Shown here one piece after another: positions 14,801 to 63,556 of a stretch of DNA of 63,556 nucleotides; the stretch's first letter is position 1; each line of letters begins with the position of its first letter. A program made the position numbers and the translations under genes. The stretch lies in IMG/VR virus record IMGVR_UViG_3300044632_001415; one strand, written 5' to 3'. The notes below the pieces were generated by a model. It was not told the DNA's origin. It ran no database searches and saw nothing but the letters and a program-made list of their open reading frames with translations. This DNA comes from an uncultured virus (IMG/VR IMGVR_UViG_3300044632_001415). Lineage: Duplodnaviria > Heunggongvirae > Uroviricota > Caudoviricetes.

Positions 14801-15688
14801 TTCAAAGACTCTATAGTCACTAATAGCTTTTGTGGGAACAACTACTTGATATCCTGTATCTGATATATTTGTTGAAAATAAATCTGAATATTTTTCATTT
14901 ATTTTTTTAATAGAATAATTATTTTCCTGATAATAATTATCATCTATAACAAAAGATTCTTCTGGAACTTCCGAAAAATATGAGACCGCGTTAATTGTTT
15001 CTGAATATTGAATCTGCTGATTAAATATTTCCCCATCGGAATTAGTTTCTATTTTATCGTAAATAAGACTTAAATTATTTGGCTTATCATGATCTAGTAA
15101 AACTATAACTCTATGTGGTTTTTCTGGATTATTTGTATTAAAGTCTGTCACAAATGGTTCTAATAAAATTCTATACTTCTTTGCATTTGTGTTTGGATCT
15201 ATGTACTCTTTTCCATTTTCATATATAACTTTAATATTAATTCCATTAAGCCTGCTTGCATCAAGATATTGCCTTCTTGATAAAAGTGAAAATGCAGCTG
15301 GTGCGCTAATAAAATGTTTACTTACATAATAATAGTGAACAAAATCTTTTGAATTTAAAGTTGATTCATCTATCTGTTCAGTATTTGTTGGTTTACCAAT
15401 AAATATATTTCCAATAGTTAAATTATTTGTTGGAAAACTATATTTATTATCAGATGTTTTTAAAAATCCTAACTCATCCGCATAGACTAAAATAGGCTCA
15501 CTAATGTCAATTTTTTGAACATTATTTTCATCAATTAAATTAGAAACATCTACCACAGAAATACTATTTCCTGGATTTATATCTTCTGAATTAAACCATC
15601 CCAAGACTGCCCCATCTGAAGGTACAGACGACCCTATTTTAACTGCCTTTTCATTTAGATTTTCTGTTTGGTTAGTAAATTTTTCCAC
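8864..15688 (-). CDS. Very large baseplate/tail-appendage protein with Pro- and Gly/Ser-rich linker and a peptidoglycan-binding domain
   Basis: 2274 aa; VEYIQTVL...GYY.G.IDGIYGPVT..AV..FQ...DG.VD..T PG_binding_1 motif; GTG start. Confidence 0.65.
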   Translation of the reverse strand: MEKFTNQTENLNEKAVKIGSSVPSDGAVLGWFNSEDINPGNSISVVDVSNLIDENNVQKIDISEPILVYADELGFLKTSDNKYSFPTNNLTIGNIFIGKPTNTEQIDESTLNSKDFVHYYYVSKHFISAPAAFSLLSRRQYLDASRLNGINIKVIYENGKEYIDPNTNAKKYRILLEPFVTDFNTNNPEKPHRVIVLLDHDKPNNLSLIYDKIETNSDGEIFNQQIQYSETINAVSYFSEVPEESFVIDDNYYQENNYSIKKINEKYSDLFSTNISDTGYQVVVPTKAISDYRVFEVFNWRLIGRSRVSVSRDEVNYGYSPEADQNSLTQSIKVGVLHADNEVNENINPYVFLRLNYSPFNLSKYNFYNPIYNGPADSRNANYWKVNIDAIGTLNDFDVLIWSPKSTITVNQKAKIDAFVRNNGTIILDLSASTANASNIDERLVIDRAGLTSSYIDTLNDSVVIDYRKNGGWTILDDSNNSIFEKSYYGIFGANYIPSRNTYKTYPFFSSNGSAEVFCKAGPTSAAAKPIGIVIQYPNSGDSLSKGNIIATTFPLAQYCNSIYNAGSPEQSISNFGEISNDIGISSTYSGIVEGPFKFLYNCVSYALYCQRATGVQDIRSTLFNFVAPWDSSWAMHSDAILEDEKRNYFTKVSISSSSELYTRDILGSQASAFEYYKYYLSRNLPELQRSILSSLLPSEVEIYIEVTNPDIILTNAEKVDENDFLIEENIPSSYTLYKIINNSAKTFAYSDPAKISPKLIAPTKMGPYVIRDKPISSSSTRRFNNELNILNSFKNYPFNLTSSYNYFQGRDKPQVLDATYTTELDVYLEGKMDVEILIRPGIPAIDPVPSREIPGVTGLCNDFKSSIDDLNQLRSTQVTANSNIFPYTGDIDIHKVLDMWEYKTVTSPFMMATIPSGTSIPIESRSIAEIESVSTFSLFENQTGAISIQSTSVPGQHDPGPAGAAEEERRRLWELFKKGAAASGLYLQNRAYSSYRMHSAYIDNSGYLIIRQLVINPVGSYYINDRKAYRRRNFETETPFQYFDALAQMAGAYGRSNAISIIFDAKQRNGSTVLAAKIMSTTLKTQSGSVSNFLNMYKDGSTVTVIPRQFVVDGATAYWQKERREYNLQAPWANANALKFYEKYGPINWKQGAVEDFAPSPYSNTYSDAVLYTSLFGSGTVNVQLMYKWASDINDYKESPWFLTLVTKDNFDTITLPVIDVWGNPTGTYINPPTSTPGNPVTPTPPAPVVPAPTPTLPGRTPPSSGGGSSGGGSRPGGGSSGGGSSGGGSSGGGSRPGGGSSGGGSSGGGSSGGGSRPGGGSSGGATRPGGGSSSGGSSGTGSRPSSASTSSPILQRSSYVEYIQTVLKTHGYYSGTIDGIYGPVTKSAVLKFQDKYGQRWEDGKVDSETKWYLAFYVRVIQLFEPQKYNTMYTEAGAEVKKYIDAVNQMALCSEINKPGKVYKKITFSGFAGPSEGADIIWFKLPDDLAKVQTITIVADQGPNGWKNYHIDSYGYSSNYTTDIFQTTLFMGLNLSASSGQIDINLANVEASKARYFWVRIVGGAIPGFGFAEGFSISQIKAKGSIMSASIPGTPAVPPVTQRYTTDTLPVYARLAIPETARGISAANPHSETYSTPRVLEKRNAAYIKHIYWNDPTALSGSVSKTFQGDEQKLGDSLERTFGNLKITFSQSLRRIESLYSSTLNSITSGNTSYPVSGNPPVTLTTNAELKKIDIDTSSTYYSVDDVVYVDQNVDNYRMKKINGTILPDTRNFVNVNDGILLLCNNDGQPYGVPTAAQILTQIAGTQVLTDEEVDFRYGFFYLKNNTTDENGFIYGFYDVLQREFIGKKIHYIDYLNRGLSNIFIAVCAFDADGNTQNKNEYIGPTVSTTFKPVVLPLKMICPVYSVKYNNLSSIKIGEIDPKISKFDSWELPVTTGSFWKTISISSSTMWSDWKNKYKGQNLLAYYSTLDKISMDWSDIYGYGYYDIVDETPILLTSKKIQVKRVPILSWNFPTNNSDSKFHIIKNIIEIYIRNSINEEWEKISHTQIKDIDCQNGTIEFLNPIVPSDLNLIKVSYTTSNKDILIRQVDGTPVPLNPFLNYDSIKFDRPLFVYITPKRIYKRSDPLNDSSNLVKVSDYSYDSFVNFTYNKEIFNYLSTEYDPFALPIGMVYVYNNPYRKTTQVADLRLRGGGLINDINIVELQDTINDVQSLWDIYPPQGTTYPKGGYVIVKIPQEVKDNFVQIEEIDRIVQNNLTAGVVYEIQDMNGNAWV
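11687..11891. repeat. GC-rich coding tandem repeat: 15-bp GGGSS units in a 63-bp higher-order period
   Basis: gaagatccaccgccg units; caggtctaga recurs at 11731, 11794 and 11857. Confidence 0.95.
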
Positions 15689-18600
15689 TTACATATCCTC
15701 ATTGTCTGGATGAATTTCGGTATAATTATCTATGTAATCTGGCGTAGATCCTAGTAGGCCCATCTGATACTGATCAAATCTTCTCAATAAAACCCACTTG
15801 GGTGGTTTCCAGCTCGGAGTAGAATGATATGTATTAATCACTGATGATGTTACATAGTCATAGGCAAAGTATGGTGTGGCAACTATATCTGATCCCATTT
15901 GCTTACTAAAGATAACATTATTATTTATAGGAGCCTCTTCGTTTGCATAATCTATAAAGTTATATGATTCGTGCCAATATACAATGTCACCAGATATAGT
16001 AACATCTAGGAGAGACAATTCTCCGAATAGATTTTCTAATTCTGTGCGTAAATCTTGCTCATTAGCGATTTCTATTTTGACAAACCAATTGTTTGGATCG
16101 TTTCTATTTCCAGCAAGAATTTCTCTTGAAATTACAAATCTACCACTAGAATCTGTGCTTATAGAGTAAGTTTGTATTCCATCATCGAAAAGGTCATATA
16201 AGGTTTCCGCTTTAGCCCATGCTAACTCTACGCTCAACTCAAGTGGCTGATCTTGCCAGTAAATTCTTCCAACAATCTCCACATAGCTTGTGCCGTCTGC
16301 TTCATATTTTAATGATGTAGAAGATGCTTTAATGTTTAAATTAAATTTTGGATTAGTTTTTAGCTTGAAAGATTCAACGTATGAATAACTTCCAGTTTCA
16401 CTGTTTTGTCCACCATTTGGCGTAGCTGAACCAACTCCATCAATTCTGATTAATTGATTCTCTTCAAATTCTTGAATTAATGGATTAAATCTTACAACTG
16501 ATAATCCATAACCATTGTCATTTGTTGTGACATATTCTGGAACAGCTTGTATAGCATCGCCATGTATATAGAATGTCTGACCTGGTTTTAGGTTATTATT
16601 TTCATCATACGAAATTATAGACAAATACATTAAGTCATCAGAATTTGAGGTTAACGTTTTTGGAGATAAATTTGTTGTAACACGTGAGAATGGATAATCA
16701 TTTTTAGAAATATATACATAACCATTTTGTAGTGGATTATTAACCTGATCAATATCTAGGTCAATTTCTAGGAAATTATCAATAATATCCTTTTCGTAAA
16801 TAATGCTGTATATTTCAGATGAAGATGGTGTTGACGAAAAGTATATAATAGATCTGTTTATATCTTCATTTTCATCATAATAATCTTTTTCTACATAGAA
16901 TGCGTCATTTACGGTATAGGATATTTCATAATCTCTATTTGCAACTGATGGAGTAGCAGAACTAAAAGGATTTAAAATATTTGTATTAGATGATAAATTC
17001 TCAAATAAAATATTTCCAGTATAAATATCCTTAACACTTGCTTTTGAAATATTTTCATATGCAGTATAGAACATGCCCAATTTGCTCGGTTGTAAAATTT
17101 CTACATTTGAAAAGGTTGTTTTACCAGGTGTTGCTGCGTCTTCAAAGACTACATTTCTATAATTTTTATCTCCAACTTTAACTATTGTAGGAGCAGCCAT
17201 TCTAGGCGTAGCTGATAGATCTATGCTAAAGAAAGAACCAGTTGCCGAATCTTCTGATGGATTAGAATAAATGTAATAATCTTTTTCATTTAGGTATACC
17301 CATCCAGAGTTTAAGCCAACTGAATAATAATTTTCTATTTCATCTTTTCTTTTAGCGAAAAGTGGGACATTTAATAGTTCATTTTCGGCAATATATGAAG
17401 TCAGCGAATTTGTAATACTATAAGTATTTTCAAAGAATGGAACGACAATATCTGGTGTAGCATGCAGCTCTACACTTCTGAAAATATGAGTATAATCTGG
17501 GTCTAAATCAAATGTTTCGCCAGATAAAATAATGTCATTCAAATAATGATCATTGCTAATAAAATAGTTTATTTTTTCAGATTCATTTAAGTATGTATTA
17601 TTGTTATTGTCGATTAGTCCAGAAAATAATTCTGGCGCATTGTAATTAAATGGATAATATACATATCTAGAAAATGGATACTGTGTTGTATTGTACGGTG
17701 TTTCTATCTCCATGTACTTCAAATTAGTATCATAATTAATCGTTGCCTCTTCAAAATACTCATAACTGCCTGAAGCTGAGTTATTTGAATCATAATACCT
17801 ATATACAATATTCGGAGAAGAGGGTATTACATAATCAATTTTTGTGTTTGCATCTCTAGACTGTCCACCAATTTCTATTGAAAGCGTGTCTATATCTGGT
17901 GTTGCAAAATTAAATATTGGCAGCGTATCAATCGTATTAACATTTAAGTATATAGTTTGAGGAGTTGCGCCAACTGGATAGAGTATGGGTGCAATTAGCT
18001 CATCAGTATTTATTGTCGCTGATTGTAAACCATTTGACGTAATGTCATTTACATTGTTTACATAAACTGAAGAATAGTATGTGTCAGTATTAAATGTACT
18101 TGAACTAGATTCATATATTGTTGATCCAATTAATAAGTTGGCATTTAGGTTATTTATATTTGGACTTGCAATTGATATATATTCATTATTAGCTGGTTCT
18201 ACATTATAGGCTGGAGTAGCTAAACTAAAAGATGCTCTATATGGAGCAACCGATACAACTTGATAACTTGGACTTGAGTATTCAGTATTAAATACCACTC
18301 TTATTTCTTCTGCGTCGAATACATTAATTGAATTTGTTGACGGTGTTGCCTGGGTATTTAAATATCTTTGATTGTATACTTTATCTTTAAATTGAATTGC
18401 ACTAAGTGAATTTCCATCCTGATCAAATATAGTAATATAATTATATTCTGGGCTAGCTGAACTATTTTCATTAAACCTATTTCCTACATAAAAGTCATCT
18501 CTATTTAGGTAATTTAGATTAGTATAAAATGTAGAAGGAGTGGCATAGTTATCGTGGGGCGGCATAACAATTTCGTATGCTACTGCTACTCCTATGGTCT

Positions 18601-20869
18601 CGCCCTCAACTACGTAGGTTTCTGTACTCACAAACGAGCGTATGGGACGAACTTTCGGTGAGCCACTCTTTGATGAATCCGACTGCTGTAGACCATCGTC
18701 AGGATGACCATCAGGGAAAAATATTGTTGTCCATGCGTTGGATGCATCTGCTTCAGAAGAACTCCAGTAAGTATAATTACTAAAACCTCCAATAATATTT
18801 TTGCTCGTCCACAACGCCTGCAATTCATCTTTAGATGGTAAGAACCAATCTGATTTTCCACCAAAATCTAACTCACTACAATACACGGCAGCAGATGTTG
18901 CTTCCACATTTCCTGCTTGATTAACAATATCAATAGTATTTTGCGCTCCAGTACCAATTGCTGTACCATCAGCGCCAGAGACCACTGCTGACTGGTTGCC
19001 CCCAGTAGCCCAAGTTCTAGTAACTTCAACGGCGACAGGCGCTGCCTCAAAATACTTACCTGTAGAGTTCCCGGCCGTAGATGGGGTGATAAATATTTTT
19101 CCTCCACCAGGACCAGTGTCGCCAATTGCGTAGGCTACCGTATCAACTTTTTGCCTTCCAGCAAAGTAGTCTGGTGTAGATTTAATATAAGACGAGTACC
19201 ATGAATAGTCAATTTTAATTGGCTCATAAGAGTATTGTAGATTATTATCAGAATATCTATGACCTTTCACTCTAATGCCACCAGTAAAGTTTATATCTTC
19301 TCCAGATCCGGCTTGAGTTATAAGCTTTGCATCATTGAAGTCTCCAACGCCTGACTGGTAGTATTCAAGTAGAGGAGAAGCTGATGTATCATAAATGGCA
19401 GGAATTCTTCCTACGCCTTCACCATTTTTTCCTGCGTAGTCCCATATACCTTCTCCCCATCTAACGTATCCTAGGTTAGATGGATATTGGTTATTTAGTT
19501 TTTCTACTAAATCAAAAAATGCTTGCTGAGGATGTCCGGCGTCGTTGAAGTATGGAGTTGAATTTTCAATATCAGATATTTCAAGTAATTCTGGAGTAGC
19601 TCCTAAATAATTAGAATTTGGCGTTGCGCCGTAGACTCTCCATATATCAAGTTCTCTTCTAAGAGTTCGTTTAAAACCTTCAGAATTTAACTGCGGCACA
19701 TTTTGATTAACATCTAGAATTCTCTTCTTGTAGTTTTCATTTGATTCTAAATATAATCTTGGTAAGCTTACTCTTGCGCCAAACTCATCAAAATCATTAA
19801 ATATATTCTCTGCATCTTGTTCGTAGACTGAGCCGTTAATTAAGAGAGTATCGAAACTTCTAATAGTTGTAAATTTTCTATTAGCTGCGTCATAAAAGTA
19901 AACATAGTCTTCATTTCTTGAGCGCAAGAAATCTAACATTGATCCGATTGGTGATAGTTCAACACCATCACCGATAACTGTAACCATATTTGGTGGCACG
20001 TTATACGATGCGTGCACCCATGCCAACATGTTAATATCTGCTGAATTAATGTACGAATTAATATCATTAAGGTTTATTTGACCCAGAATATCATCAAGAG
20101 ACTCTTGAACTAGACCTGTCATAAACTTGCCACCAGTAGACTCTGGTATATGTAATCTAGGGTTTGTTAAATTTTCAAAAAAATCAATACTGTCTAAGCC
20201 AGAATTTGGTGTAGTAGATGCTACAGAATCTTTAAATATATCAGTCCAGGATGGGAATCTTCTAAGTATATTTCTAACAGATGTTCCAGCTATTGGTGAG
20301 ACAGGGTTATGTATTAATACTTCTAGGTAGAATATTAGGCCAAGAGTATTTAAATTTATTTCTTCTGTTTCTATTTCTAGAACAACTTTTATGTAAGGCT
20401 TAACGTTTCTAAGAAATAAAGTATTTGTATCTGTAGTTATAAGTGATTTTAGCCATGGACCATCTGGATCGCCATCATCAGACTCATATATTTCAATAGA
20501 AAAAGTTGGCTCTATTGTTCCTGGAAGATTGGTGAATAAATGTCGATAGCTAATGACATCTGCCCTAGAAGACATGTCAACAAATCTAAGAATACTAGGA
20601 GTAGCAGTCTCTGGTATTATTTCGCCATAATCAGTTTTATATCTGGCATCTTCGTGGTATGGTGTACTATGATTTCCGTCAAAAGATGGTGATGTTAATT
20701 CTGTACCAGTAAATACTGTATCGCCAATAAGATCTAGTCCATATGCAGATCTTGAATAAGAATAGTTTGTATAGCTATTATTGCTATATATATTAATTGG
20801 ATTACTAGTCCATATATTTCCAGACTTAGAAAAGTCTGAACTCCTTAATAGCAATAAATATTGTTTCAT
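15689..20869 (-). CDS. Large baseplate wedge/receptor-binding protein with internal CLec (DUF1566-like) domain; ATP-motif rich
   Basis: FDEFG..V.LPRL..ESNENYKKRI...G....L.REL (gpI/gp7-like wedge segment); insert with DWFLPSKDEL, YWSSSE, VRPIRSF. Confidence 0.65.
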   Translation of the reverse strand: MKQYLLLLRSSDFSKSGNIWTSNPINIYSNNSYTNYSYSRSAYGLDLIGDTVFTGTELTSPSFDGNHSTPYHEDARYKTDYGEIIPETATPSILRFVDMSSRADVISYRHLFTNLPGTIEPTFSIEIYESDDGDPDGPWLKSLITTDTNTLFLRNVKPYIKVVLEIETEEINLNTLGLIFYLEVLIHNPVSPIAGTSVRNILRRFPSWTDIFKDSVASTTPNSGLDSIDFFENLTNPRLHIPESTGGKFMTGLVQESLDDILGQINLNDINSYINSADINMLAWVHASYNVPPNMVTVIGDGVELSPIGSMLDFLRSRNEDYVYFYDAANRKFTTIRSFDTLLINGSVYEQDAENIFNDFDEFGARVSLPRLYLESNENYKKRILDVNQNVPQLNSEGFKRTLRRELDIWRVYGATPNSNYLGATPELLEISDIENSTPYFNDAGHPQQAFFDLVEKLNNQYPSNLGYVRWGEGIWDYAGKNGEGVGRIPAIYDTSASPLLEYYQSGVGDFNDAKLITQAGSGEDINFTGGIRVKGHRYSDNNLQYSYEPIKIDYSWYSSYIKSTPDYFAGRQKVDTVAYAIGDTGPGGGKIFITPSTAGNSTGKYFEAAPVAVEVTRTWATGGNQSAVVSGADGTAIGTGAQNTIDIVNQAGNVEATSAAVYCSELDFGGKSDWFLPSKDELQALWTSKNIIGGFSNYTYWSSSEADASNAWTTIFFPDGHPDDGLQQSDSSKSGSPKVRPIRSFVSTETYVVEGETIGVAVAYEIVMPPHDNYATPSTFYTNLNYLNRDDFYVGNRFNENSSASPEYNYITIFDQDGNSLSAIQFKDKVYNQRYLNTQATPSTNSINVFDAEEIRVVFNTEYSSPSYQVVSVAPYRASFSLATPAYNVEPANNEYISIASPNINNLNANLLIGSTIYESSSSTFNTDTYYSSVYVNNVNDITSNGLQSATINTDELIAPILYPVGATPQTIYLNVNTIDTLPIFNFATPDIDTLSIEIGGQSRDANTKIDYVIPSSPNIVYRYYDSNNSASGSYEYFEEATINYDTNLKYMEIETPYNTTQYPFSRYVYYPFNYNAPELFSGLIDNNNNTYLNESEKINYFISNDHYLNDIILSGETFDLDPDYTHIFRSVELHATPDIVVPFFENTYSITNSLTSYIAENELLNVPLFAKRKDEIENYYSVGLNSGWVYLNEKDYYIYSNPSEDSATGSFFSIDLSATPRMAAPTIVKVGDKNYRNVVFEDAATPGKTTFSNVEILQPSKLGMFYTAYENISKASVKDIYTGNILFENLSSNTNILNPFSSATPSVANRDYEISYTVNDAFYVEKDYYDENEDINRSIIYFSSTPSSSEIYSIIYEKDIIDNFLEIDLDIDQVNNPLQNGYVYISKNDYPFSRVTTNLSPKTLTSNSDDLMYLSIISYDENNNLKPGQTFYIHGDAIQAVPEYVTTNDNGYGLSVVRFNPLIQEFEENQLIRIDGVGSATPNGGQNSETGSYSYVESFKLKTNPKFNLNIKASSTSLKYEADGTSYVEIVGRIYWQDQPLELSVELAWAKAETLYDLFDDGIQTYSISTDSSGRFVISREILAGNRNDPNNWFVKIEIANEQDLRTELENLFGELSLLDVTISGDIVYWHESYNFIDYANEEAPINNNVIFSKQMGSDIVATPYFAYDYVTSSVINTYHSTPSWKPPKWVLLRRFDQYQMGLLGSTPDYIDNYTEIHPDNEDM

Positions 20870-20881
20870 TAAATACCCTTA

Positions 20882-22051
20882 TTAGTAAGCTGCTGCACCG
20901 ACTACGACTGCTGCACCAACAACATTCCCAGCTGCGTAGTATTCGGTAACAGAATTTGTAATTATATCTTTTAGAGGTAAATCTTTACCATTTGCAGTTA
21001 GACCACTAAAAGTTACTCCTCTAATTATATCAGAAGAAAGCTTTATTTGTCTCTCTAATTCAGATAAAGATACTGTATCTCCTATTGAAAGAGAATTTAA
21101 ATATCTTTTTACAAAGAGTGTAGACTGATTTAATAATCCCTGAATACCTGATTCAGAATTTCCAGTTGGAACAGTAATTGTATAGTTAACATTAATTATT
21201 ACTTTTTCGGCAATTCTTACATTAAATCTAATTCCAACGGGCTTCACACTTGTTATGGCTGTAAGTATTGATTCTGGAAGTGCTTTAAGGCCAGAAGATA
21301 CTTCTGGAACAACAATAACATCACATGAACCTATACCGTAAGTAGCTTGTCTAATTCGAACATCTCTGACACCTTTAACGGAAAGTGCTGCAAATCTTAC
21401 AGATTCTGCGGTACCGGGCAAACGTGTCTTCATTGAAGCTAATATTCTTCTGCGATAATTGTCATCAGATTCCGATGATATATTTGAGTACACTTCTTTT
21501 GGATTTGAGCAGCCGACAATAACTGTATTTGGTCCAATATAATTATGTTTAGTTAATGTATTTATCCCAGCAACGTACGAGTTGTCAGAAAAGTTTGGCT
21601 TTACAATTCCATATGCTTTTAGTGAACCGGTAGGAATGATGACGTCACCAGCAACTGCATAGCTATATTGTTTAGTAGTAAAGTTTGATACATCATTATA
21701 AACAAGTGTACCTCTAGGAATTATGACATCCCTGCTATGCTGTTTATTTATAAAAAATTCAATATTGTAAGTTTGTCTTTCTTGGGCAACGTAATCGGAA
21801 ACTGATTTTCTGGGAATGCCATAGAGATCACCTATTAAATCTAAATTTCTACCAGAAGCAGTTGTTAACCTACTTTGATTAACACTAAATCTAAAGGCTT
21901 CATATAAATCAGAAATTTCCGAACTAAATGCGTCTGCAAAAGCTTGAGCTATTGAGCCAGGGTAAGTTGCTGTAATACCTGCATTTTTTTCTAGATTTCT
22001 TAAAATTGAAGTTAATATTTCCGCTTTACTTTTGACGCCATATATGCTCAT
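20882..22051 (-). CDS. Baseplate J-like wedge protein
   Basis: TASGRNLDLIG...GIPR, IPRGT, ESDDNYRRRI, GT..SVRFAALSV.GV. Confidence 0.88.
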   Translation of the reverse strand: MSIYGVKSKAEILTSILRNLEKNAGITATYPGSIAQAFADAFSSEISDLYEAFRFSVNQSRLTTASGRNLDLIGDLYGIPRKSVSDYVAQERQTYNIEFFINKQHSRDVIIPRGTLVYNDVSNFTTKQYSYAVAGDVIIPTGSLKAYGIVKPNFSDNSYVAGINTLTKHNYIGPNTVIVGCSNPKEVYSNISSESDDNYRRRILASMKTRLPGTAESVRFAALSVKGVRDVRIRQATYGIGSCDVIVVPEVSSGLKALPESILTAITSVKPVGIRFNVRIAEKVIINVNYTITVPTGNSESGIQGLLNQSTLFVKRYLNSLSIGDTVSLSELERQIKLSSDIIRGVTFSGLTANGKDLPLKDIITNSVTEYYAAGNVVGAAVVVGAAAY

Positions 22052-22432
22052 TTAGGCTCCTAAATTCTGATTTATAGATAAGGTTATTGGTTGATTTGCA
22101 TCTGTCAGTATGTGTATGTCAAATCTAATTGTATCTTTACTCGTTGGAATAGCATCTATTTTTATATTTCTGCCTTTAAATAGACCTTCTCTCTGAAGGG
22201 CTGTTCTTATTAGTTTTTTGCCATACTCTCCTGTTTGCACTGTTTGAGGCATTCCGTATAGCAGCGAAAGATCTACACCTAAGTTTGGATAATTAATAAA
22301 ATCTCCTGGCTCAGTCATTAATCTTATATATATTTGCTGAACATCTGATTGTAGTGCAGATGTTGTTTTAGCAATGTCGTTTTTTCCATCGATTAATAAA
22401 TCACCAGTATATGTAAAATATAGGTCAGGCAT
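22052..22432 (-). CDS. gp25/GpW-like baseplate wedge (sheath initiator)
   Basis: GDL..., QQIYIRLMTEPGD...YPNLG..L..L.G; precedes baseplate J. Confidence 0.8.
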   Translation of the reverse strand: MPDLYFTYTGDLLIDGKNDIAKTTSALQSDVQQIYIRLMTEPGDFINYPNLGVDLSLLYGMPQTVQTGEYGKKLIRTALQREGLFKGRNIKIDAIPTSKDTIRFDIHILTDANQPITLSINQNLGA

Positions 22433-53419: not shown

Positions 53420-54685
53420 TTATAGGTTGATAGCTACCTGTACTTCGATATTTCTCAACTCGAAGGCAGGTGTTAATACGAGGTCAACAATCGCTTTATT
53501 TTGAGCAGGGACATATGATACTGAGAAGTCACTGCCTAATATAGCTCCTAATAGTTGCATTCCTCTTAGTGCTGAAGTAATTGCTGTTTCCATCGAATTT
53601 CTTGTTTGAATACTTGATGGTTCTCCAACAAAACTCTGACACACTTGTCTGACGAGCATAACTGCTTCGTCTATAATTCTCTTAGTTGACAAACGAGTAT
53701 AATCTGATGTTGACTGAGCGAATGTTAAACTTTCTCCAAATACAGCGATCTTATTAAAGTTAAGAACCACTGTGTTTACGCCCTTTATAGCTAGTGCCGA
53801 CTGCTGACTTCTAGTTGGAGCGTATCTTAGTGATTGAACATTAAAGACTGGCTTATTAACTAATGAGCTATATGAAGAAAGTCTGCTTAATGTTCCTGCT
53901 AAAAATGATGCGCCATTAGAATAACCAAAATCAGTGCCACCACTAGTATAATTTACCGGCTTAAGTTCCGTTGCAACTACAGTAACATATGGTCCTAGTT
54001 CCTTCTGGTAAATTTCATTTACGTTATCATATGTGCCACTACCATCTCTATCGGCAAGGCCTGATACAGCAAGATGCGCAGCTACTTGACCTGGTGTCAT
54101 TTTTTCTGCGGCTGCAATGTATGGCTTGACTCCCATTACGGCAATGCATGGATTGCTATTTTCAGAAATTGACTTAACGGCATTTGCAACTTTATATGTC
54201 CAGCTATAGGTTAGTGTAGTGCTATTGTCTGCGTGGAATCCAAACTCATCCGAATCTGATGGTGTAGCAGTTGGAATCTCCCAGTCACTATCATTTCCAC
54301 CTCTGCCCCAAGGAATAATGATATCAGGAAGTGCTGCCTCTGCTGCATCAAACGCTTCTTGAAATACACTAATCCCACCACTTGTTAAGGAGCCTGTAGT
54401 ATGATTAAATGCTGTATTGCTTGGTAGTGGAACTAAATATATTCTTTCTGCTCCCGCAATAATTAATTCAATAAAGGCTTTATGTGCGTCTGAGCCTTCT
54501 CCAAAAATTGATATTACATCAGCTTCATTTGAGGCTCTAACGACATCAAGATCTGCTATGCCACCAGTCCCATCAGCTGTACTACGGCGAGCTATAGCGA
54601 CAACTCTTGGACCAGATGGTGTATCGTTTCTTGTTACGCTATAGAATCGATCTCTAATTTTAGTAGTTACTCCAGGTATACTCAT
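53420..54685 (-). CDS. Major tail sheath protein
   Basis: N-terminal IPGV; SDYTRLSTKRII, FVGEP and C-terminal VDLVLTPAFELRNIEV typical of sheath C-terminal domains; precedes tube gene. Confidence 0.88.
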   Translation of the reverse strand: MSIPGVTTKIRDRFYSVTRNDTPSGPRVVAIARRSTADGTGGIADLDVVRASNEADVISIFGEGSDAHKAFIELIIAGAERIYLVPLPSNTAFNHTTGSLTSGGISVFQEAFDAAEAALPDIIIPWGRGGNDSDWEIPTATPSDSDEFGFHADNSTTLTYSWTYKVANAVKSISENSNPCIAVMGVKPYIAAAEKMTPGQVAAHLAVSGLADRDGSGTYDNVNEIYQKELGPYVTVVATELKPVNYTSGGTDFGYSNGASFLAGTLSRLSSYSSLVNKPVFNVQSLRYAPTRSQQSALAIKGVNTVVLNFNKIAVFGESLTFAQSTSDYTRLSTKRIIDEAVMLVRQVCQSFVGEPSSIQTRNSMETAITSALRGMQLLGAILGSDFSVSYVPAQNKAIVDLVLTPAFELRNIEVQVAINL

Positions 54686-54801: not shown

Positions 54802-55611
54802 TTACTGTGAATTTGGAGTTGCTGTTTTGCTTAAATCTACAATGTTTACTGATACATTTTCATAATTTGGAGTAGCTAAAGAGTTAACGTACTCAGATTC
54901 ATAAGCCATCCAATTTCGTATATCTACTAAAATGCTACTAATTCTCGCATTTTCAATTGCAAAGGTTTTTTCTGTAGTTAACATATAGGTAACAGTTCTT
55001 TTATGAATATCTGATCCATCTCGATTTATTTCAGAATCAGCTAAACGCCTAGAGTAGACTAATTCGGAAGCTCCAGCTGCCTTAAATATTGGTGTGTACT
55101 CAAGCATAAAATCTTCAAAAGCTTCAGTAATTTGATCACACATGACTGCAGCATCCATGTCGTCGGATGTAATTCCTGGATTGCTACCCTGAAGAGTGGT
55201 AATTCTCATCATAGGAGAAAATGAGACTATATTTTGATATTTTTGCCCATATATAGTATACCTATTATTTTCTACGTTTTGACGCATTCTTGGTTTAGGT
55301 TCTACTGTATGAGTTTTTCTTAATTCTAATGCATATCCTATAATTGATGTAATATCTTTTCCATTAACCTGCTGTGAGAATGTATCTAAATTAACCCCAA
55401 CTGGAACAACCGGAATAGAAGGATGACTTTCTTCCCATACTTTTTTAACTAAAGATATAAATTGCAAATAGTTTAGAGAACCTGGATATAATTCTTCTAC
55501 TCCACCAATATTTAATCTAATTCCTGGAGATTGCAAATGTGCTTGACCAGGAACGCCTTCCCATCTTGAGGAAATTGAACTAGTTGGAAAAACTCTATTA
55601 TAATATACCAT
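54802..55611 (-). CDS. Tail terminator/completion protein
   Basis: 269 aa; KPRMR...YGQ..QNIV.F, FEDFM.EY...F...G, RTVTY; position between neck and main sheath. Confidence 0.55.
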   Translation of the reverse strand: MVYYNRVFPTSSISSRWEGVPGQAHLQSPGIRLNIGGVEELYPGSLNYLQFISLVKKVWEESHPSIPVVPVGVNLDTFSQQVNGKDITSIIGYALELRKTHTVEPKPRMRQNVENNRYTIYGQKYQNIVSFSPMMRITTLQGSNPGITSDDMDAAVMCDQITEAFEDFMLEYTPIFKAAGASELVYSRRLADSEINRDGSDIHKRTVTYMLTTEKTFAIENARISSILVDIRNWMAYESEYVNSLATPNYENVSVNIVDLSKTATPNSQ

Positions 55612-57206
55612 TATGCACCGGGTCCTGCAGCTATTCTAAAATCGATTTTTTTAAGTCCAAGCGCAGATAGTAGTTCTATGTATACAAACATTTTTCCAGG
55701 ATCATTAACTGCTACTTGTCTATTAAGTGAAAAATCCAAAATTATATTATCAGATTTCATTGAACGTAATAATTTATTAAGTTTATCCATAAATACATCA
55801 TGACCAAACTTACCTATACTTTCATACGCGTAGTCTTTAGCCATATTAACCACATAGCCTACTAATCTCATTTGTGCAGCTTTTTGGAGTGTGCTATTTG
55901 ACTTTGCCATTGTATAATCATTTGTTAGATATACCTCAAACGGTATTGATCTTTTAGTTTTTTTGCCACGATATATTGTATTGATCCCAATATTTTCTAA
56001 TCTTCTAAAATCCTGTTGAGATAAATCTGAACCATATAAAGACATTAATCCTGGCACCCTAGCTCTTATTAGAGATCTGTTTAATGGATTACTAGCCAAT
56101 AGTCCAGCGTAGGCTGCTGCCATATTTGATATATAGGAACTATTTATTTGTGAGTGTTGAAAGACACCTTCACCATATACTGGAATGACAAACCGTCCAT
56201 TGTCTGATAGGACAGTATTGTCTATATTGTACTCTGTAAGCTTATCTGTAATTATTTCATCTGCTTCTAAAAAGTCAATATCCACTGAATTGACGCCACC
56301 GGATCTAGAACCAATTATACCCATCTGGACATATCCTGTTGTATTATGAAAGTCCGCGCAGTAATCTGCTAATTGTGTAATAAAATCAACACCATTAGTT
56401 TTTAGTATTGAAGTTTCTAAGGGAACAATTATATCTACAAAATCAAGATCTTTAATTATTGAATATGTTTCCTCTAATCTTTCATAATATTTTTCATAAA
56501 AAGTATATGAAGAAGGTGTCGCATTTTGTAGATCAAATATTGTAGTTGGAATATTTTTTTCATAAAATTTTTCGACATACTCTAACATAGGGGCTGCCGC
56601 ACAAATCATTATATCTCTAGCTCCTGCTGCGTATGCGTCAAAAACGCCTCTTAGTAGAGGAGACTTTAAGTCTGCGCCTAAAAGATCTACCGCTTGTTGA
56701 ACTGTTTTTATTTCAACTGGTACATTTAATTCTATATTATTTGCATGCCCGATTAATAAAATAGTTGACGTATTTCCTGCTGACAGTTGTGCATATCGTG
56801 GTTGATAATTTATAACAGTACTTTTTTCAGAGTTAACTATAACTGGAGATAAAGTAATTGGATCACCTTTTACTTCAAAATTAGATGTAACTACAAGTTG
56901 TGAAGCTGAGTCTGAAGTTCTGGCTAATACAGTATATGTACCATTAAATAATGTACTGGGAATTCTATAATTAAATGTAAATTCGTATGTGTTTGATTTT
57001 TCAATGTATGCGTCAGTATTTGGTGTAGAGTTTTGACTCCAGTATGAATATGGGCCATCTATTACTGGTCCAGAACCATCTGCCCCTCTAAGGATTGTTA
57101 TATACAAATCTGATGGACTTGCAACTGAGGTTGGATCGTACGGTAAACCTCTAGAGGTAAATATAAATTTAAATTTAACTAATTGACCTCTTTGTAATAC
57201 TAGCAT
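55611..57206 (-). CDS. Tail-sheath paralogue with N-terminal Ig-like domain
   Basis: ILLIG....V.I..VQQA..L.G, LE.IGINT and C-terminal IELLS..GL..I.F sheath-like features; probable start at MLVLQRG (57206). Confidence 0.7.
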   Translation of the reverse strand: MLVLQRGQLVKFKFIFTSRGLPYDPTSVASPSDLYITILRGADGSGPVIDGPYSYWSQNSTPNTDAYIEKSNTYEFTFNYRIPSTLFNGTYTVLARTSDSASQLVVTSNFEVKGDPITLSPVIVNSEKSTVINYQPRYAQLSAGNTSTILLIGHANNIELNVPVEIKTVQQAVDLLGADLKSPLLRGVFDAYAAGARDIMICAAAPMLEYVEKFYEKNIPTTIFDLQNATPSSYTFYEKYYERLEETYSIIKDLDFVDIIVPLETSILKTNGVDFITQLADYCADFHNTTGYVQMGIIGSRSGGVNSVDIDFLEADEIITDKLTEYNIDNTVLSDNGRFVIPVYGEGVFQHSQINSSYISNMAAAYAGLLASNPLNRSLIRARVPGLMSLYGSDLSQQDFRRLENIGINTIYRGKKTKRSIPFEVYLTNDYTMAKSNSTLQKAAQMRLVGYVVNMAKDYAYESIGKFGHDVFMDKLNKLLRSMKSDNIILDFSLNRQVAVNDPGKMFVYIELLSALGLKKIDFRIAAGPGA

Positions 57207-57207
57207 T

Positions 57208-57579
57208 TCACTTCTCTCTTGTAGCTCCAACTACCCAATAGTTAATTTCACCTAGTCTACCTCTAATAGCGGAAACTGTATCTATCTTAAAGACAGTATA
57301 ATTTTTATTTACTTTTAAAGAATAATTTTCATATATTCTATCACCTTCTTTAGGTGATATATGCTTTTCGAAGTAATAGACTGCATCATAGTTTGATACT
57401 ATCCCTTCGGGCATTTCTTGTGTAGAGTTAGCGTTTGTCATACCTGACTGTCCAACTTGACGAGTTGTTACTCTTTCAAATTGATCAGAATGATTTCCAT
57501 TTGATAACATTCGCTGAAAATAAATATCATGTCCCCACTCGCGCATTACTTTTCTAAATGCTCGCTTAGCGTCAATCAT
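57208..57579 (-). CDS. Head closure/stopper protein
   Basis: 123 aa beta-rich, VYYF...ISPKEGDRI and GRLGEINYW; canonical position after the adaptor. Confidence 0.6.
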   Translation of the reverse strand: MIDAKRAFRKVMREWGHDIYFQRMLSNGNHSDQFERVTTRQVGQSGMTNANSTQEMPEGIVSNYDAVYYFEKHISPKEGDRIYENYSLKVNKNYTVFKIDTVSAIRGRLGEINYWVVGATREK

Positions 57580-61047: not shown

Positions 61048-61458
61048 TTATAAACTAAATATTTTATATTGTTCGTTACTCCAATTAATTGTGATGGAGA
61101 TAGGACTAGCACTAGAAGATACTGGAAGTCCAGTAGCTGTATCTATGTAGGCTAAAAGTCTTGATGTAGATCTAACTCCAGTATCTTTATATAAAACTAG
61201 ATAGGCAAAACCGCTAGTCCCGTAATCTTCTATTGTAATATTATCAGCATCAAAGACACCAGATGCTGTTGTTTTTCCGCTTAATAAACTAGTAGTTGCT
61301 GCGACTGAATCTTCACTAATGCTTGATAAGAATTCATGTGTACTTAAATTTACTGTATAAGTATTTTTTACTAATGCAATTTTTAAGTTATTGTCAGTCA
61401 GGTCAAATAAACCCTCTAGTAGGCCTTCTTTCCCTTTTGCATATAGTGCATTTGCCAT
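61048..61458 (-). CDS. Small virion structural protein (head/neck region)
   Basis: 136 aa, MANALY..G.E..L...DL....LKIALV...WS....IFSL pattern recalled from phage structural modules. Confidence 0.55.
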   Translation of the reverse strand: MANALYAKGKEGLLEGLFDLTDNNLKIALVKNTYTVNLSTHEFLSSISEDSVAATTSLLSGKTTASGVFDADNITIEDYGTSGFAYLVLYKDTGVRSTSRLLAYIDTATGLPVSSSASPISITINWSNEQYKIFSL

Positions 61459-62231
61459 TATATGCCAACTTCCGAAGAGACAATAACTCTATATTTATAG
61501 CCTTTTTCGAAATAAGTTTTATCATCAATATAGAAAACGGGTGTAGCGTCTGTAGATGGGAAATCTACATATACATCTGGTTTCCATGAGTGCATTGATA
61601 TATTTGTATCTACATTTTCCCATCTTGATGGAGTCTTTTGTATCTTTTTGCGCTGCGCTTTAAAGTATTTAGAGATCAAAAAGTTTGAAGCTGGTCGAGA
61701 ACTAAATGTAATTGTTACCCTACCATTATTCTCATCATTTGCTAGATAAAAATCTCCAGCCGTTGGATTAGTTGATATTATATAAAAATCTGGGTTTTTT
61801 GCTAATATTTGATATCCAGTTTCAATATCTGCTCTAACAGACTTATCTTCTATTAAAACTTCATTAAGAACTGTAGCTTTACTGTCAGTAAGAATCGAAG
61901 GTGTCGCTGCGCTAGTCTGGCTTGTAAAGGTTATTTTTTCTTCTGGAATTATAAAACCTGAAGAGTCTAATAAATTTGTTATTTTAAGAACATAATCTGT
62001 GTTTGGCTGTAATACTATATCCCAATATAAAGTTAAAGTTCTACTAATCTGATTATAGTCAGTTATTGTATTTATTACCTTAAATGGAGAAACTAGTTGA
62101 ACTGGTGTTGCGGTATCTGTATTTACAGTAAAATTGGCATCTACTATCGAAGATATCTTAATAGTTCTTCCAAACTTAATGTTAACTGTATTTACTGTTA
62201 CAGTTGCATTATCAATCAAATATAGTGCCAC
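61458..62231 (-). CDS. Virion structural protein with two Ig-like domains (decoration)
   Basis: Beta-rich LTLYW..LQPNTDYVLKI..L.D..G and ISTNP....VTITFS patterns typical of Big/SbsA Ig-like domains; start reassigned to GTG at 62231 (GGAG 8 nt upstream); three ATP motifs. Confidence 0.6.
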   Translation of the reverse strand: MALYLIDNATVTVNTVNIKFGRTIKISSIVDANFTVNTDTATPVQLVSPFKVINTITDYNQISRTLTLYWDIVLQPNTDYVLKITNLLDSSGFIIPEEKITFTSQTSAATPSILTDSKATVLNEVLIEDKSVRADIETGYQILAKNPDFYIISTNPTAGDFYLANDENNGRVTITFSSRPASNFLISKYFKAQRKKIQKTPSRWENVDTNISMHSWKPDVYVDFPSTDATPVFYIDDKTYFEKGYKYRVIVSSEVGI

Positions 62232-62262
62232 TTTACACACTCCATAATACGCATCTATTTTA

Positions 62263-62365: not shown

Positions 62366-63430
62366 TCAGCTCAAAGCTACGTCGTTTGTAACCTGAACTT
62401 CGTAGTTGCGGCTGAGTCTTACGTTCTTAGCAACAGTGATACCTTCACCATCACCTAACATTACGATATCATACCGCTCCTTCATTTTAAGTGAGCGAAT
62501 GTCACGACTTGGATCATCAAACTGATCTGTACTCATATCATCCTTCACTAGAAGTGAGCCGACCTCATTGCGATCAATGAGGAAGAGGTCTGACTTAGCA
62601 GCTGTTGCGCCACTCTTAGCAGTAAAGCTAACGAATGGTGAAACAAGCACATTGAGACCCATGGGTGCTGTTGCATTTAGAGCGCCTTCGGCTGACTGAG
62701 GACGATATCCCCAGCTACTTCCAACACCTGAAGCTGCACCACCGGCGTGGAAAATAGCGTCCTTAAGGAACACTGACCACATCAAGGGGTGTAGGATAAA
62801 GTCTGTTGGAATATGGTTTTCAGCCATAAGAACAGCAGCCATGTCAATGATGTCATCCCATGTCACGGTCTTGTTGGCTGTGCCATCAATGTCGCGACCT
62901 GTGGTGTCATCGTATGAACCGCTATCGTTATCAAATACGATAGTAGCTGCGTCTTTGAATCGGCTAAGTGCAATTTGCTCTTTCAAACGAGCCATGGCAC
63001 GCCCAGCTGCACGAACATGTAGGCCAACAATGTCCCAAAGTGAATCGGCAATTACCTCTTCTGTAAAGGCGAGCTTAACGCCCTTCTTTGAAACTTTGCC
63101 CTCTACCTGCTTTGCAAATGCGAGTGCTTGCTCTGGATACTCTTGTCCTTCTGGGATCTCTGCTGCTTGGATTGCATTGACTGCTGGGAACTCCAAAGAG
63201 CGCCCCTTGCCGAGGCGAACTGTAGAGAGAAGCGGCGTAACCAGCAATTGTGGCTCCGCAGCCTCACGCAGAGTGCGAGAGAGAACCTTGGGGAAAAGGG
63301 CAGCTGCATCAGAAGATGCAAATGCTTCCTTAATGGTTACTCTATTATCTGCGTCTATATACCCGTCCTCAGTCAGTGCAGCCTCCCAAGCTGGGAGACC
63401 CGAGAGGAGCTCTTGGATTGTCTTACTCAT
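62366..63430 (-). CDS. Major capsid protein (HK97 fold)
   Basis: 354 aa; EAFASSDAAALFPKV, AAEIPEGQEYPE, KKGVKLAFTEEVIADS, ILHPLMW and ERYDIV resemble HK97-type MCP motifs; AGGAGG RBS, distinct codon usage, followed by a strong hairpin. Confidence 0.9.
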   Translation of the reverse strand: MSKTIQELLSGLPAWEAALTEDGYIDADNRVTIKEAFASSDAAALFPKVLSRTLREAAEPQLLVTPLLSTVRLGKGRSLEFPAVNAIQAAEIPEGQEYPEQALAFAKQVEGKVSKKGVKLAFTEEVIADSLWDIVGLHVRAAGRAMARLKEQIALSRFKDAATIVFDNDSGSYDDTTGRDIDGTANKTVTWDDIIDMAAVLMAENHIPTDFILHPLMWSVFLKDAIFHAGGAASGVGSSWGYRPQSAEGALNATAPMGLNVLVSPFVSFTAKSGATAAKSDLFLIDRNEVGSLLVKDDMSTDQFDDPSRDIRSLKMKERYDIVMLGDGEGITVAKNVRLSRNYEVQVTNDVALS

Positions 63431-63468: not shown

Positions 63469-63556
63469 TCAGAGTGTCAAATTAACGCGGAATGCGCCAA
63501 TGACATTATTTACGTCCAGGTTCGCCCGAATGCCAAGCTTACCGCTAAAAGTACCG
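63469..63556 (-). CDS. 3' end of a head-associated protein (decoration/capsid accessory), truncated by window edge
   Basis: Open frame ...GTFSGKLGIRANLDVNNVIGAFRVNLTL ending TGA TAA, directly upstream of the capsid gene RBS; function inferred from position only. Confidence 0.55.
   Translation of the reverse strand, partial: GTFSGKLGIRANLDVNNVIGAFRVNLTL

What the first reader, a model, noticed from the sequence alone, without database searches (positions are those of the whole stretch)
15689..20869. Extreme enrichment of an Ala-Thr-Pro tripeptide: candidate virion glycosylation/modification sequon
Seen: by manual count the 1726-aa protein has 14 ATP, 6 STP, 3 ASP and 2 SSP. A rough composition-based expectation for ATP is below 1. 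The copies are dispersed in unrelated contexts and use different codons (GCT ACT CCT, GCA ACG CCA, GCC ACT CCT, GCA ACA CCG), so this is protein-level selection and not a DNA repeat. The inserted CLec domain contains none. Inference: a recognition signal for an enzyme modifying Thr/Ser, such as a phage-encoded O-glycosyltransferase (virion glycosylation is known in some mycobacteriophages), or a docking site for a decorating protein.
Basis: partly seen in the sequence, partly recalled or inferred. Interest (0 to 1): 0.82.

Follow-up and report, generated by a model that had tools for sequence, protein, structure and literature searches.

The report
Ala-Thr-Pro tag on phage particle proteins
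A large baseplate protein and several other particle proteins of this uncultured phage carry the three-residue tag Ala-Thr-Pro far more often than chance, and it behaves like a signal read by another factor, most likely the phage's own sugar-adding enzymes, though no chemistry has been done.

Summary
The counts are exact: 14 ATP against 0.34 expected (P 3e-18), 12 different codon triplets. The protein is a baseplate-module protein of a ~200-kb 0305phi8-36-like myovirus, host probably actinobacterial (WhiB in 11 of 12 related records).

The tag is lineage-wide: 116 of 116 close and 64 of 70 distant homologs carry 6-21 ATP. It sits in loops, not in a repeated domain. It recurs on the capsid cement protein (96 of 96), a head protein and both sheath proteins, but not on non-virion proteins. 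Six homologs lost it as a block, keeping 3 of 58 sister sites against 60% in controls, so something external reads it.

Three GT-A glycosyltransferases are core genes (7 of 7 near-complete relatives). One lies between portal and protease; another has the flagellin transferase GmaR as best PDB match. No conserved phage kinase was found.

Best reading (0.62): an O-glycosylation sequon for phage enzymes. I could not test joint loss of tag and enzyme, because no tag-less genome was found. The scan noted this tag before on other genomes. Verdict: new variant of virion glycosylation, unproven.

The parts
15689..20869 (-). 1726-aa baseplate-module virion protein: conserved N-terminal part (aa ~243-411 = phrog_21059), then a chain of beta-sandwich domains; 14 ATP, 6 STP, 3 ASP, 2 SSP
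   Evidence: lies directly after the Baseplate_J gene
18599..19144 (-). Mobile Lcl_C-like insert (aa ~576-757), tag-free; absent from a 98%-identical, 1548-aa homolog (P0002)
20597..20605 (-). ATP site aa 89-91 (motif in 101 of 104 homologs covering it)
19619..19627 (-). ATP site aa 415-417 (85 of 115; 55 of 57 tagged distant homologs)
19592..19600 (-). ATP site aa 424-426 (92 of 115; 56 of 57 tagged distant homologs)
18536..18544 (-). ATP site aa 776-778 (83 of 115), coil
18341..18349 (-). ATP site aa 841-843 (86 of 114), coil
18212..18220 (-). ATP site aa 884-886 (55 of 114), coil
17960..17968 (-). ATP site aa 968-970 (83 of 116), coil
17897..17905 (-). ATP site aa 989-991, lineage-specific (6 of 94), coil
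17453..17461 (-). ATP site aa 1137-1139 (29 of 116), coil
17204..17212 (-). ATP site aa 1220-1222, lineage-specific (5 of 116), on an otherwise conserved Pro
17126..17134 (-). ATP site aa 1246-1248 (112 of 116), coil
16949..16957 (-). ATP site aa 1305-1307 (92 of 114), coil
16418..16426 (-). ATP site aa 1482-1484 (74 of 113), coil
15872..15880 (-). ATP site aa 1664-1666 (89 of 113), in the low-confidence C-terminal tail that also holds STP 1683 and STP 1708
20882..22432 (-). Baseplate_J (20882-22051) and gp25-like (22052-22432) genes; no tag; they place the target in the baseplate module
53420..54685 (-). Tail sheath, 1 ATP (54260-54268)
54802..55611 (-). 269-aa virion structural protein between the two sheath genes, 2 ATP near the C-terminus (54868-54876, 54814-54822)
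55611..57230 (-). Second sheath-like protein, 1 ATP (56514-56522) plus 1 STP and 1 ASP
61458..62240 (-). 260-aa head-module protein after the capsid gene, 3 ATP (62103-62111, 61899-61907, 61539-61547); 71 of 71 distinct orthologs have at least 1, 56 have 3
62366..63430 (-). Major capsid protein, no tag here (ATP in 17 of 78 orthologs)
63472..63556 (-). 3' end of the 257-aa capsid cement gene. Its single ATP loop, then the protease, the portal-linked GT-A gene (about 2.4-3.2 kb past the window end) and the portal were read in G007, which is 99% identical to the window

Best explanation
[Ala>Ser]-Thr-Pro is a short acceptor sequon. During assembly in the host cytoplasm, a phage-encoded GT-A glycosyltransferase puts a first sugar on the Thr (Ser tolerated) hydroxyl in exposed loops of selected virion proteins: the baseplate protein (about 20 sites per chain), capsid cement (1), a head protein (3), the sheaths and, in some lineages, fibres. 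Other core and variable glycosyl- and methyltransferases extend the glycan, giving the particle a sugar coat. SHOWN: enrichment, restriction to a few virion proteins, loop location, site gain and loss, block loss, presence and conservation of the enzymes. INFERRED: that the Thr is glycosylated, that these enzymes do it, that it happens in the cytoplasm, and the purpose (shielding, stability or adsorption). Which enzyme starts the glycan is open: the portal-linked GT-P is favoured by position; GT-C or GT-B by likeness to GmaR and by the GX15bay observation.
For: Tag in 116 of 116 close homologs (6-17 ATP) and 64 of 70 distant homologs of 1200 aa or more. Thr is kept at 0.70 inside the motif and 0.34 outside; position -1 is A 52%, S 26%. 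Sites turn over: 92 site clusters, only 21 held by half of the homologs. Block loss: 3 of 58 sister ATP sites kept against 12541 of 20798 in tagged pairs of like identity; at common sites Pro stays in 53 of 85 cells, Thr/Ser in 25 of 85. The losses are nested among tagged sisters on a tree built with the motifs masked. The same tag sits on unrelated folds: cement (96 of 96; beta-tulip cement fold, Z 8.8) and an FN3 fibre protein with 11 ATP in G011. Non-virion proteins have 7 ATP against 12.9 expected. GT-P lies between portal and protease in 178 of 178 loci (redundant) and in 25 of 25 records that reach the head region, with invariant DxD, xED and C-terminal His, the position of the Corndog GTs (PMC4351075, passages). 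GT-B and GT-C are in 7 of 7 near-complete records; GT-C's best PDB match is GmaR, a flagellin GlcNAc transferase. Three cultured relatives have portal abutting protease and no tag.
Against: No chemistry. Joint loss of tag and enzyme was not testable: all 105 loci fetched were tagged and searches aimed at tag-less lineages found none. GT-P's closest solved relative is the GT1 domain of COLGALT1, which is non-catalytic in humans (PMC12003778, abstract). The GmaR match covers only about 110 N-terminal residues shared by many GT2 enzymes. GT-B and GT-C lie among DNA-metabolism genes and could act on DNA or the host surface; they were seen in relatives, not in a record of this phage itself. The three GTs match no mycobacteriophage enzyme by tblastn; that search also missed a 29% homolog later found by HMM, so absence in the cultured relatives is weak evidence. 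Solvent exposure was not computed, and Pro motifs favour loops anyway (15 of 32 other xxP are all-coil). The GX15bay signal is weak (6 vs 2.7, P 0.057).
Confidence: 0.62

Rival explanations
1. The tripeptide is a docking motif. A small decorating protein or an assembly chaperone binds ATP loops on head, tail and baseplate, and lineages that lose that partner lose the tag.
For: Explains dispersal, turnover, virion restriction and block loss equally well. Many small conserved genes of unknown function lie in the module.
Against: Three residues with only weak flanking preference give little binding surface. The kept feature is a hydroxyl (T or S) beside Pro. About 20 sites per chain, some 9 residues apart (aa 415 and 424), suit a small adduct better than a protein ligand (inference). 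No candidate partner was identified.
Confidence: 0.13
2. The Thr is modified by something other than the phage GTs: phosphorylation by a host Ser/Thr kinase, host O-mannosylation, or an unrecognised phage transferase.
For: S/T-P is a classic proline-directed kinase site (recalled). An actinobacterial host is likely (WhiB in 11 of 12 records), and such hosts have Ser/Thr kinases and protein O-mannosylation (recalled). A host methyltransferase modifies a mycobacteriophage tail protein (PMC13445384, passages).
Against: PF00069 was found in 1 of 14 related records, below its cut-off. Host O-mannosylation acts on exported proteins at the membrane (recalled), whereas these are assembled virion proteins. 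This reading leaves three core phage GTs, one inside the head operon, unexplained.
Confidence: 0.13
3. ATP is a favoured structural turn or cap in beta-rich virion proteins and needs no reader.
For: 11 of 11 modelled ATP sites are coil. Pro is often retained in tag-less homologs (53 of 85). Some sites, such as SSP 1018, look structural.
Against: Six full-length homologs lost nearly all sites together at 39-50% identity to tagged sisters. Other beta-rich window proteins have 1 ATP against 3.1 expected. Long inserted domains have 0.8 motifs per 1000 aa against 14.1 in the core. No internal repeat: 3 of 25 site profiles gave short, weak cross-hits.
Confidence: 0.05
4. A phage prolyl hydroxylase converts the Pro to hydroxyproline, which then takes the sugar, as in plant Ala/Ser/Thr-Hyp glycomodules (recalled).
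For: PF13640 oxygenases are in 13 of 19 related records, up to 9 copies. GT-P resembles COLGALT1, which acts on a hydroxylated residue.
Against: PF13640 is absent from 3 of 7 near-complete records, two of them with direct terminal repeats; all three are tagged. On tag loss it is Thr/Ser, more than Pro, that decays.
Confidence: 0.04

Closest known systems
Virion glycosylation of mycobacteriophages Che8, Corndog and Myrna (Freeman et al. 2023; seen only second-hand in PMC12363180, PMC13445384 and PMC12619734; gene position from PMC4351075)
   Same: Phage-encoded GTs, probable actinobacterial host, a GT gene between portal and protease as in Corndog, accessory methyltransferases, virion proteins as presumed targets.
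   Different: There the glycans are reported on capsid and tail-tube subunits, at their C-termini. Here the capsid and tube proteins are mostly untagged, and the tag is an internal tripeptide on cement, head, sheath and baseplate proteins, about 20 times on one chain. No sequence match to mycobacteriophage GTs at tblastn sensitivity. A ~200-kb myovirus. No chemistry.
Listeria GmaR flagellin GlcNAc transferase (PMC9638930, passages)
   Same: GT2 N-terminal domain is the best PDB match of GT-C (E 1.3e-9); it adds a sugar to a polymerising structural protein.
   Different: The match covers about 110 residues. GT-C is 230 aa, with no TPR or antirepressor part. I saw no Ala-Thr-Pro rule described for GmaR in the passages read.
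COLGALT1/GLT25D1 GT1 domain (PMC12003778, abstract)
   Same: Best PDB match of GT-P (E 7e-8); GT-A fold that binds UDP-sugar and metal.
   Different: The human GT1 domain is non-catalytic and the enzyme acts on hydroxylysine. GT-P is a stand-alone domain with invariant DxD, xED and C-terminal His.
Bacillus phage 0305phi8-36-like myoviruses (KLEB27-3, Edson, WH1, Moorella MTATph1, Acinetobacter ME3)
   Same: Homologous portal (30-38%), similar gene order, homologous N-terminal part of the baseplate protein in four of them.
   Different: In the three records inspected, the portal abuts the protease gene and the virion proteins counted carry no ATP enrichment.

Membership tests
Mycobacteriophage-type virion O-glycosylation system | Phage-encoded glycosyltransferase genes | tested here: met
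   GT-P in G007 (99% identical to the window); GT-P, GT-B and GT-C in 7 of 7 near-complete relatives
Mycobacteriophage-type virion O-glycosylation system | GT gene between portal and maturation protease (Corndog layout) | tested here: met
   178 of 178 loci and 47 of 47 in a second, overlapping sample; PMC4351075 passages
Mycobacteriophage-type virion O-glycosylation system | Homology to the Che8 gp110 / Corndog gp38 enzymes | tested here: inconclusive
   No mycobacteriophage hit among 50,697 records, but this search missed a 29% homolog; no structural comparison was run
Mycobacteriophage-type virion O-glycosylation system | Targets are the capsid and tail-tube subunits, at C-terminal sites | tested here: inconclusive
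   The ATP tag is not there (capsid and tube-like proteins 0 ATP in the window; 17 of 78 capsid orthologs); tag-independent glycosylation of those subunits cannot be seen from sequence
Mycobacteriophage-type virion O-glycosylation system | Glycans on virions, lost when the GT gene is deleted | not testable with these tools
   Uncultured phage; needs mass spectrometry and genetics
GT-A fold glycosyltransferase (GT-P) | DxD, xED and C-terminal His motifs (PMC7185993, passages) | tested here: met
   Invariant D114-S-D116, G205-E206-D207 and H231 in 22 of 22 aligned sequences; motif roles assigned by pattern, not from a model
GmaR-type protein GlcNAc transferase (GT-C) | GT2 catalytic domain similar to GmaR | tested here: met
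   Top PDB hit, E 1.3e-9 over profile positions 2-110
GmaR-type protein GlcNAc transferase (GT-C) | TPR and antirepressor domains | tested here: not met
   GT-C is about 230 aa, GT domain only
Phage-encoded Ser/Thr kinase system | Conserved Hanks-type kinase gene | tested here: not met
   PF00069 in 1 of 14 records, below cut-off; control rings in 12 of 14 genomes. Other kinase folds were not searched
Phage DNA hypermodification by TET/JBP plus GT | TET/JBP dioxygenase gene | tested here: inconclusive
   0 of 10 records over the cut-off and 4 with weak hits, most on PF13640 genes; the control rang in 0 of 14 genomes. dCMP hydroxymethylase was not searched as a family
Tandem structural repeat protein | Motif at equivalent positions of repeated domains | tested here: not met
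   3 of 25 site-centred profiles hit another part of the protein, short and weak; the same motif sits on unrelated folds
Beta-tulip capsid cement protein (257-aa neighbour) | Cement fold and position just before the capsid gene | tested here: met
   VIA-align Z 8.8, rmsd 2.9, 114 aligned (8qsy); the top 17 rows are all phage or archaeal-virus chains, mostly capsid entries; atlas neighbours with Phage_cement families at 10-43% share; model mean pLDDT 65.6

The most novel reading that the evidence does not exclude
A large aquatic phage lineage runs a sequon-directed protein O-glycosylation code. One phage enzyme reads Ala-Thr-Pro in any exposed loop, so a site can be gained or lost by point mutation, and swappable glycosyl- and methyltransferase cassettes set the outer glycan. 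The reader module (GT-B plus GT-C) also travels to unrelated small actinophages such as GX15bay, where the same tag appears on head and tail proteins. That would be a portable three-residue glycosylation tag with a small soluble enzyme.
Probability: 0.4. Interest if true: 0.88.

Novelty: new variant of a known kind. Interest (0 to 1): 0.68.

Why it matters
Phage virion glycosylation is described, in the papers I could read, for a few mycobacteriophages, and my searches found no defined phage O-glycosylation sequon (most subscription papers are not held). A three-residue tag with three candidate enzymes is testable with synthetic peptides, without culturing the phage. If true, it makes glycosylated virions predictable from sequence in an abundant aquatic phage group (563 capsid matches in IMG/VR). 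It would also offer a small cytoplasmic enzyme-tag pair for site-directed glycosylation in bacteria.

Tried and rejected
The window's own genome is not held; G007, G010, G002, G003 and G011-G014 stood in.

Hunt for a tag-less genome failed. A direct scan with the target gave nothing. Alignment A3 gave 80 + 22 + 3 loci, all tagged. A4 gave none. A5 gave 4 loci on contigs already seen as tagged. Portal- and cement-anchored samples all had GT-P and the cement ATP. Cluster look-up showed the six tag-less proteins come from Logan/ENA contigs that I could not read.

One search printed 46 head-protein orthologs with 0 ATP; this was a frame-extraction bug, corrected.

Four hits (P0110, P0116, P0118, P0120) match only the insert (10% coverage, 0-1 ATP) and were left out of the 116.

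Foldseek against the PDB gave only generic beta-sandwich matches for the target (TM-score 0.14 or less) and no match at E 0.001 or better for the cement.

The GT-B scan of GTDB gave one phage contig of this clade and two closer bacterial homologs in cellular-looking gene contexts with no tag; the other 27 of 30 loci were not examined.

Rejected: a DNA repeat (12 different 9-mers); composition bias; a repeated domain; a conserved phage Hanks-type kinase; an obligatory PF13640 hydroxylase. MAG labels on phage contigs were not used for host assignment.

Not run: AU test on the tree, complex prediction, read mapping. Freeman et al. 2023 was not available; its site data may bear on the comparison.
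Full report
OBSERVATION. The ORF at 15689-20869 (-) encodes 1726 aa with 14 ATP, 6 STP, 3 ASP and 2 SSP, as stated. ATP is expected 0.34 times (P 3e-18). In 2000 shuffles no tripeptide reached more than 8 copies, ATP never exceeded 3 and [AS][ST]P never exceeded 8, against 25 observed; block-wise shuffles gave maxima of 3 and 11. The 14 sites use 12 different 9-mers, so this is not a DNA repeat. The insert (about aa 576-757) is tag-free, scores as Lcl_C below cut-off, and is missing from a 98%-identical homolog.

WHAT THE PROTEIN IS. The window is the virion module of a myovirus: capsid, two sheath genes, tube-like genes, gp25-like and Baseplate_J genes. The target follows Baseplate_J. Its N-terminal part matches phrog_21059 and proteins of Bacillus and Moorella phages, and the portal of a near-identical record matches 0305phi8-36. 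Near-complete relatives are 190-231 kb. WhiB in 11 of 12 records points to an actinobacterial host (inference). An AlphaFold model of aa 757-1726 (pLDDT 81, pTM 0.40) is a chain of beta-sandwich domains with only generic PDB matches and one clear viral homolog. All 11 modelled ATP sites are coil; 15 of 18 motifs are all-coil against 15 of 32 other xxP triplets. The three C-terminal sites fall in segments under pLDDT 50, and burial was not measured. Profiles centred on the 25 sites found another part of the protein in only 3 cases, short and weak, so the sites are not repeats of one domain.

HOW THE TAG EVOLVES. Of 168 hits, 120 were listed; 4 match only the insert and were dropped. The other 116 have 6-17 ATP, and ATP is the most enriched tripeptide in 115 of them. 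Their 2485 motifs fall into 92 site clusters, of which 21 are held by at least half; Thr is kept at 0.70 in the motif and 0.34 elsewhere; position -1 is Ala 52%, Ser 26%, Thr 8%; flanks show only weak preferences. Long inserted domains carry 0.8 motifs per 1000 aa against 14.1 in the core. Among 70 distant homologs of 1200 aa or more (about 29-51% identity over the N-terminal part), 64 carry 6-21 ATP and 6 carry 0-1. On a FastTree tree with the motifs masked, the six are nested among tagged sisters in at least two places, probably more (no AU test). They keep 3 of 58 ATP sites of their nearest tagged relatives, against 12541 of 20798 in tagged pairs of similar identity. At the 17 common sites they keep Pro in 53 of 85 cells but Thr/Ser in only 25. 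Sites that are gained singly and lost together are what is expected when an external factor reads the motif (inference). The six proteins are not independent of each other or of the controls, so the contrast is descriptive.

WHERE ELSE. In the window, four sheath and head-module proteins hold 7 ATP (0.4 expected; chosen after seeing the counts) and the other 27 hold 1 (3.1 expected). The 260-aa head protein has at least one ATP in 71 of 71 distinct orthologs. The gene before the capsid gene has exactly one in 96 of 96, within a variable loop; capsid (17 of 78), portal (3 of 102), protease (3 of 92) and GT-P (0 of 101) mostly lack it. That gene encodes a beta-tulip capsid cement protein, so the tag would cover the head (inference from the fold family). 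Non-virion proteins of G003 and G002 have 4 and 3 ATP against 7.0 and 5.9 expected (pooled P 0.057 for depletion). In distant G011 an FN3 fibre-like protein carries 11 ATP.

CANDIDATE READERS. G007 matches the window at 99.1-99.6% over 26.5 kb and continues past its end: cement, protease, a 255-aa gene, a 101-aa gene, portal. The 255-aa gene (GT-P) is a GT-A glycosyltransferase: atlas score 0.99, best PDB match the COLGALT1 GT1 domain, invariant DxD, xED and C-terminal His. It lies between portal and protease in 41 of 41, 178 of 178 and 47 of 47 loci (overlapping, redundant samples). It is in 25 of 32 records, and the 7 without it also lack portal and capsid genes. Corndog has its glycosyltransferases in the same interval (PMC4351075, passages). 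Two further GT2 genes lie among DNA-metabolism genes: GT-B in 18 of 19 records and GT-C in 17 of 19, both in 7 of 7 records at least 90% complete. GT-C's best PDB match is GmaR, over its N-terminal 110 residues; GmaR adds GlcNAc to flagellin (PMC9638930, passages). Variable GT, methyltransferase and epimerase cassettes differ among G002, G003 and G011. No conserved Hanks-type kinase, no TET/JBP over cut-off, and PF13640 oxygenases in only 4 of 7 near-complete records.

CO-OCCURRENCE. Three cultured relatives (MTATph1, KLEB27-3, ME3) have portal abutting protease and no tag on the virion proteins counted. They are distant, and the tblastn absence of GTs is weak because it missed a 29% homolog. 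An unrelated 52-kb, 63% GC phage, GX15bay, has adjacent homologs of GT-B (43%) and GT-C (29%, HMM E 1e-27) and no GT-P. Its 19 genes from the portal onward that I counted hold 6 ATP against 2.7 expected (P 0.057), and 4 against 0.83 between portal and tape measure (P 0.010, post hoc), including one in the gene before the presumed capsid gene. The decisive test, a tag-less genome of this lineage, failed: all 105 loci fetched were tagged, and targeted scans gave nothing new. Earlier notes of this scan report such joint loss in one or two genomes; I could not check that and do not count it.

MECHANISM AND RIVALS. Most likely (0.62), a phage GT-A enzyme glycosylates the Thr of exposed [A>S]TP loops and other enzymes extend the glycan. 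Every chemical step is inferred. A docking motif (0.13) explains the same evolutionary pattern and is not excluded. A host or unknown modifier (0.13), a purely structural turn (0.05) and a hydroxyproline route (0.04) fit less well.

KNOWN SYSTEMS. It works like mycobacteriophage virion glycosylation in gene content and layout, but membership is not established: enzyme homology is inconclusive, the tagged proteins differ, and no glycan has been seen. Freeman et al. 2023 was not held; I saw it only as summarised in PMC12363180 and PMC13445384 (passages) and PMC12619734 (first eighth plus passages). Also read: PMC12003778 (abstract and outline), PMC7185993 and PMC13738210 (passages). Six searches found no phage Ala-Thr-Pro sequon in the held library, judged from the listings and these passages. 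No supplements were opened.

VERDICT. Real, strong and lineage-wide. An external reader is well supported; sugar attachment is the leading but unproven reading. New variant of a known kind, interest 0.68.

Noticed in passing
MK557849.1 (L554) 13126-18249 and 27464-49171: Unrelated 52-kb phage GX15bay has adjacent GT-B and GT-C homologs in a cluster of six annotated transferases before the terminase, and a weak ATP excess in its virion genes.
   Followed up: partly
L089:11968-14416 (G002); L320:8048-10751 (G011): ThiF-family and Prok-JAB genes close together in both distant genomes: parts of a ubiquitin-like conjugation system carried by the phage.
   Followed up: no
window 18599-19144: The Lcl_C-like insert is present or absent between 98%-identical proteins; other homologs carry different long inserts, some with PF14312, PF02018 or PF17164.
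   Followed up: partly
window 8864-15688: 2274-aa protein with a Gly/Ser-rich repeat followed by a peptidoglycan-binding domain; the matching region is split over separate ORFs in G002 and G003.
   Followed up: no
window, the 31 proteins other than the target: The tripeptide PTA occurs 12 times against 3.5 expected, unlike in G002 and G003; unexplained.
   Followed up: no
G004, G016-G018, G020-G022, G024, G025: Arrays of 6-9 PF13640 2OG-Fe(II) oxygenase matches per record; G002 has two beside a tryptophan halogenase gene.
   Followed up: partly
L087:10712-13202 (G002), L095:10289-13904 (G003), L323:4333-10360 (G011): Different glycosyltransferase, methyltransferase, acetyltransferase and epimerase cassettes in related genomes; they could be swappable glycan-tailoring modules.
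   Followed up: partly
L321:7244-8824 (G011): TROVE/Ro60 gene in the phage genome; an associated Y RNA was not looked for.
   Followed up: no
L105:18127-19588, L106:91-1256, L108:313-654 (G007, G010): Several ORFs begin with nearly the same 12 residues, implying a repeated DNA element before early genes, beyond the window.
   Followed up: no
G003 116995-121469 and 164824-166277; G004 near 98900: The target gene (G003, G004) and the protease gene (G003) are interrupted in these records, possibly assembly errors.
   Followed up: no
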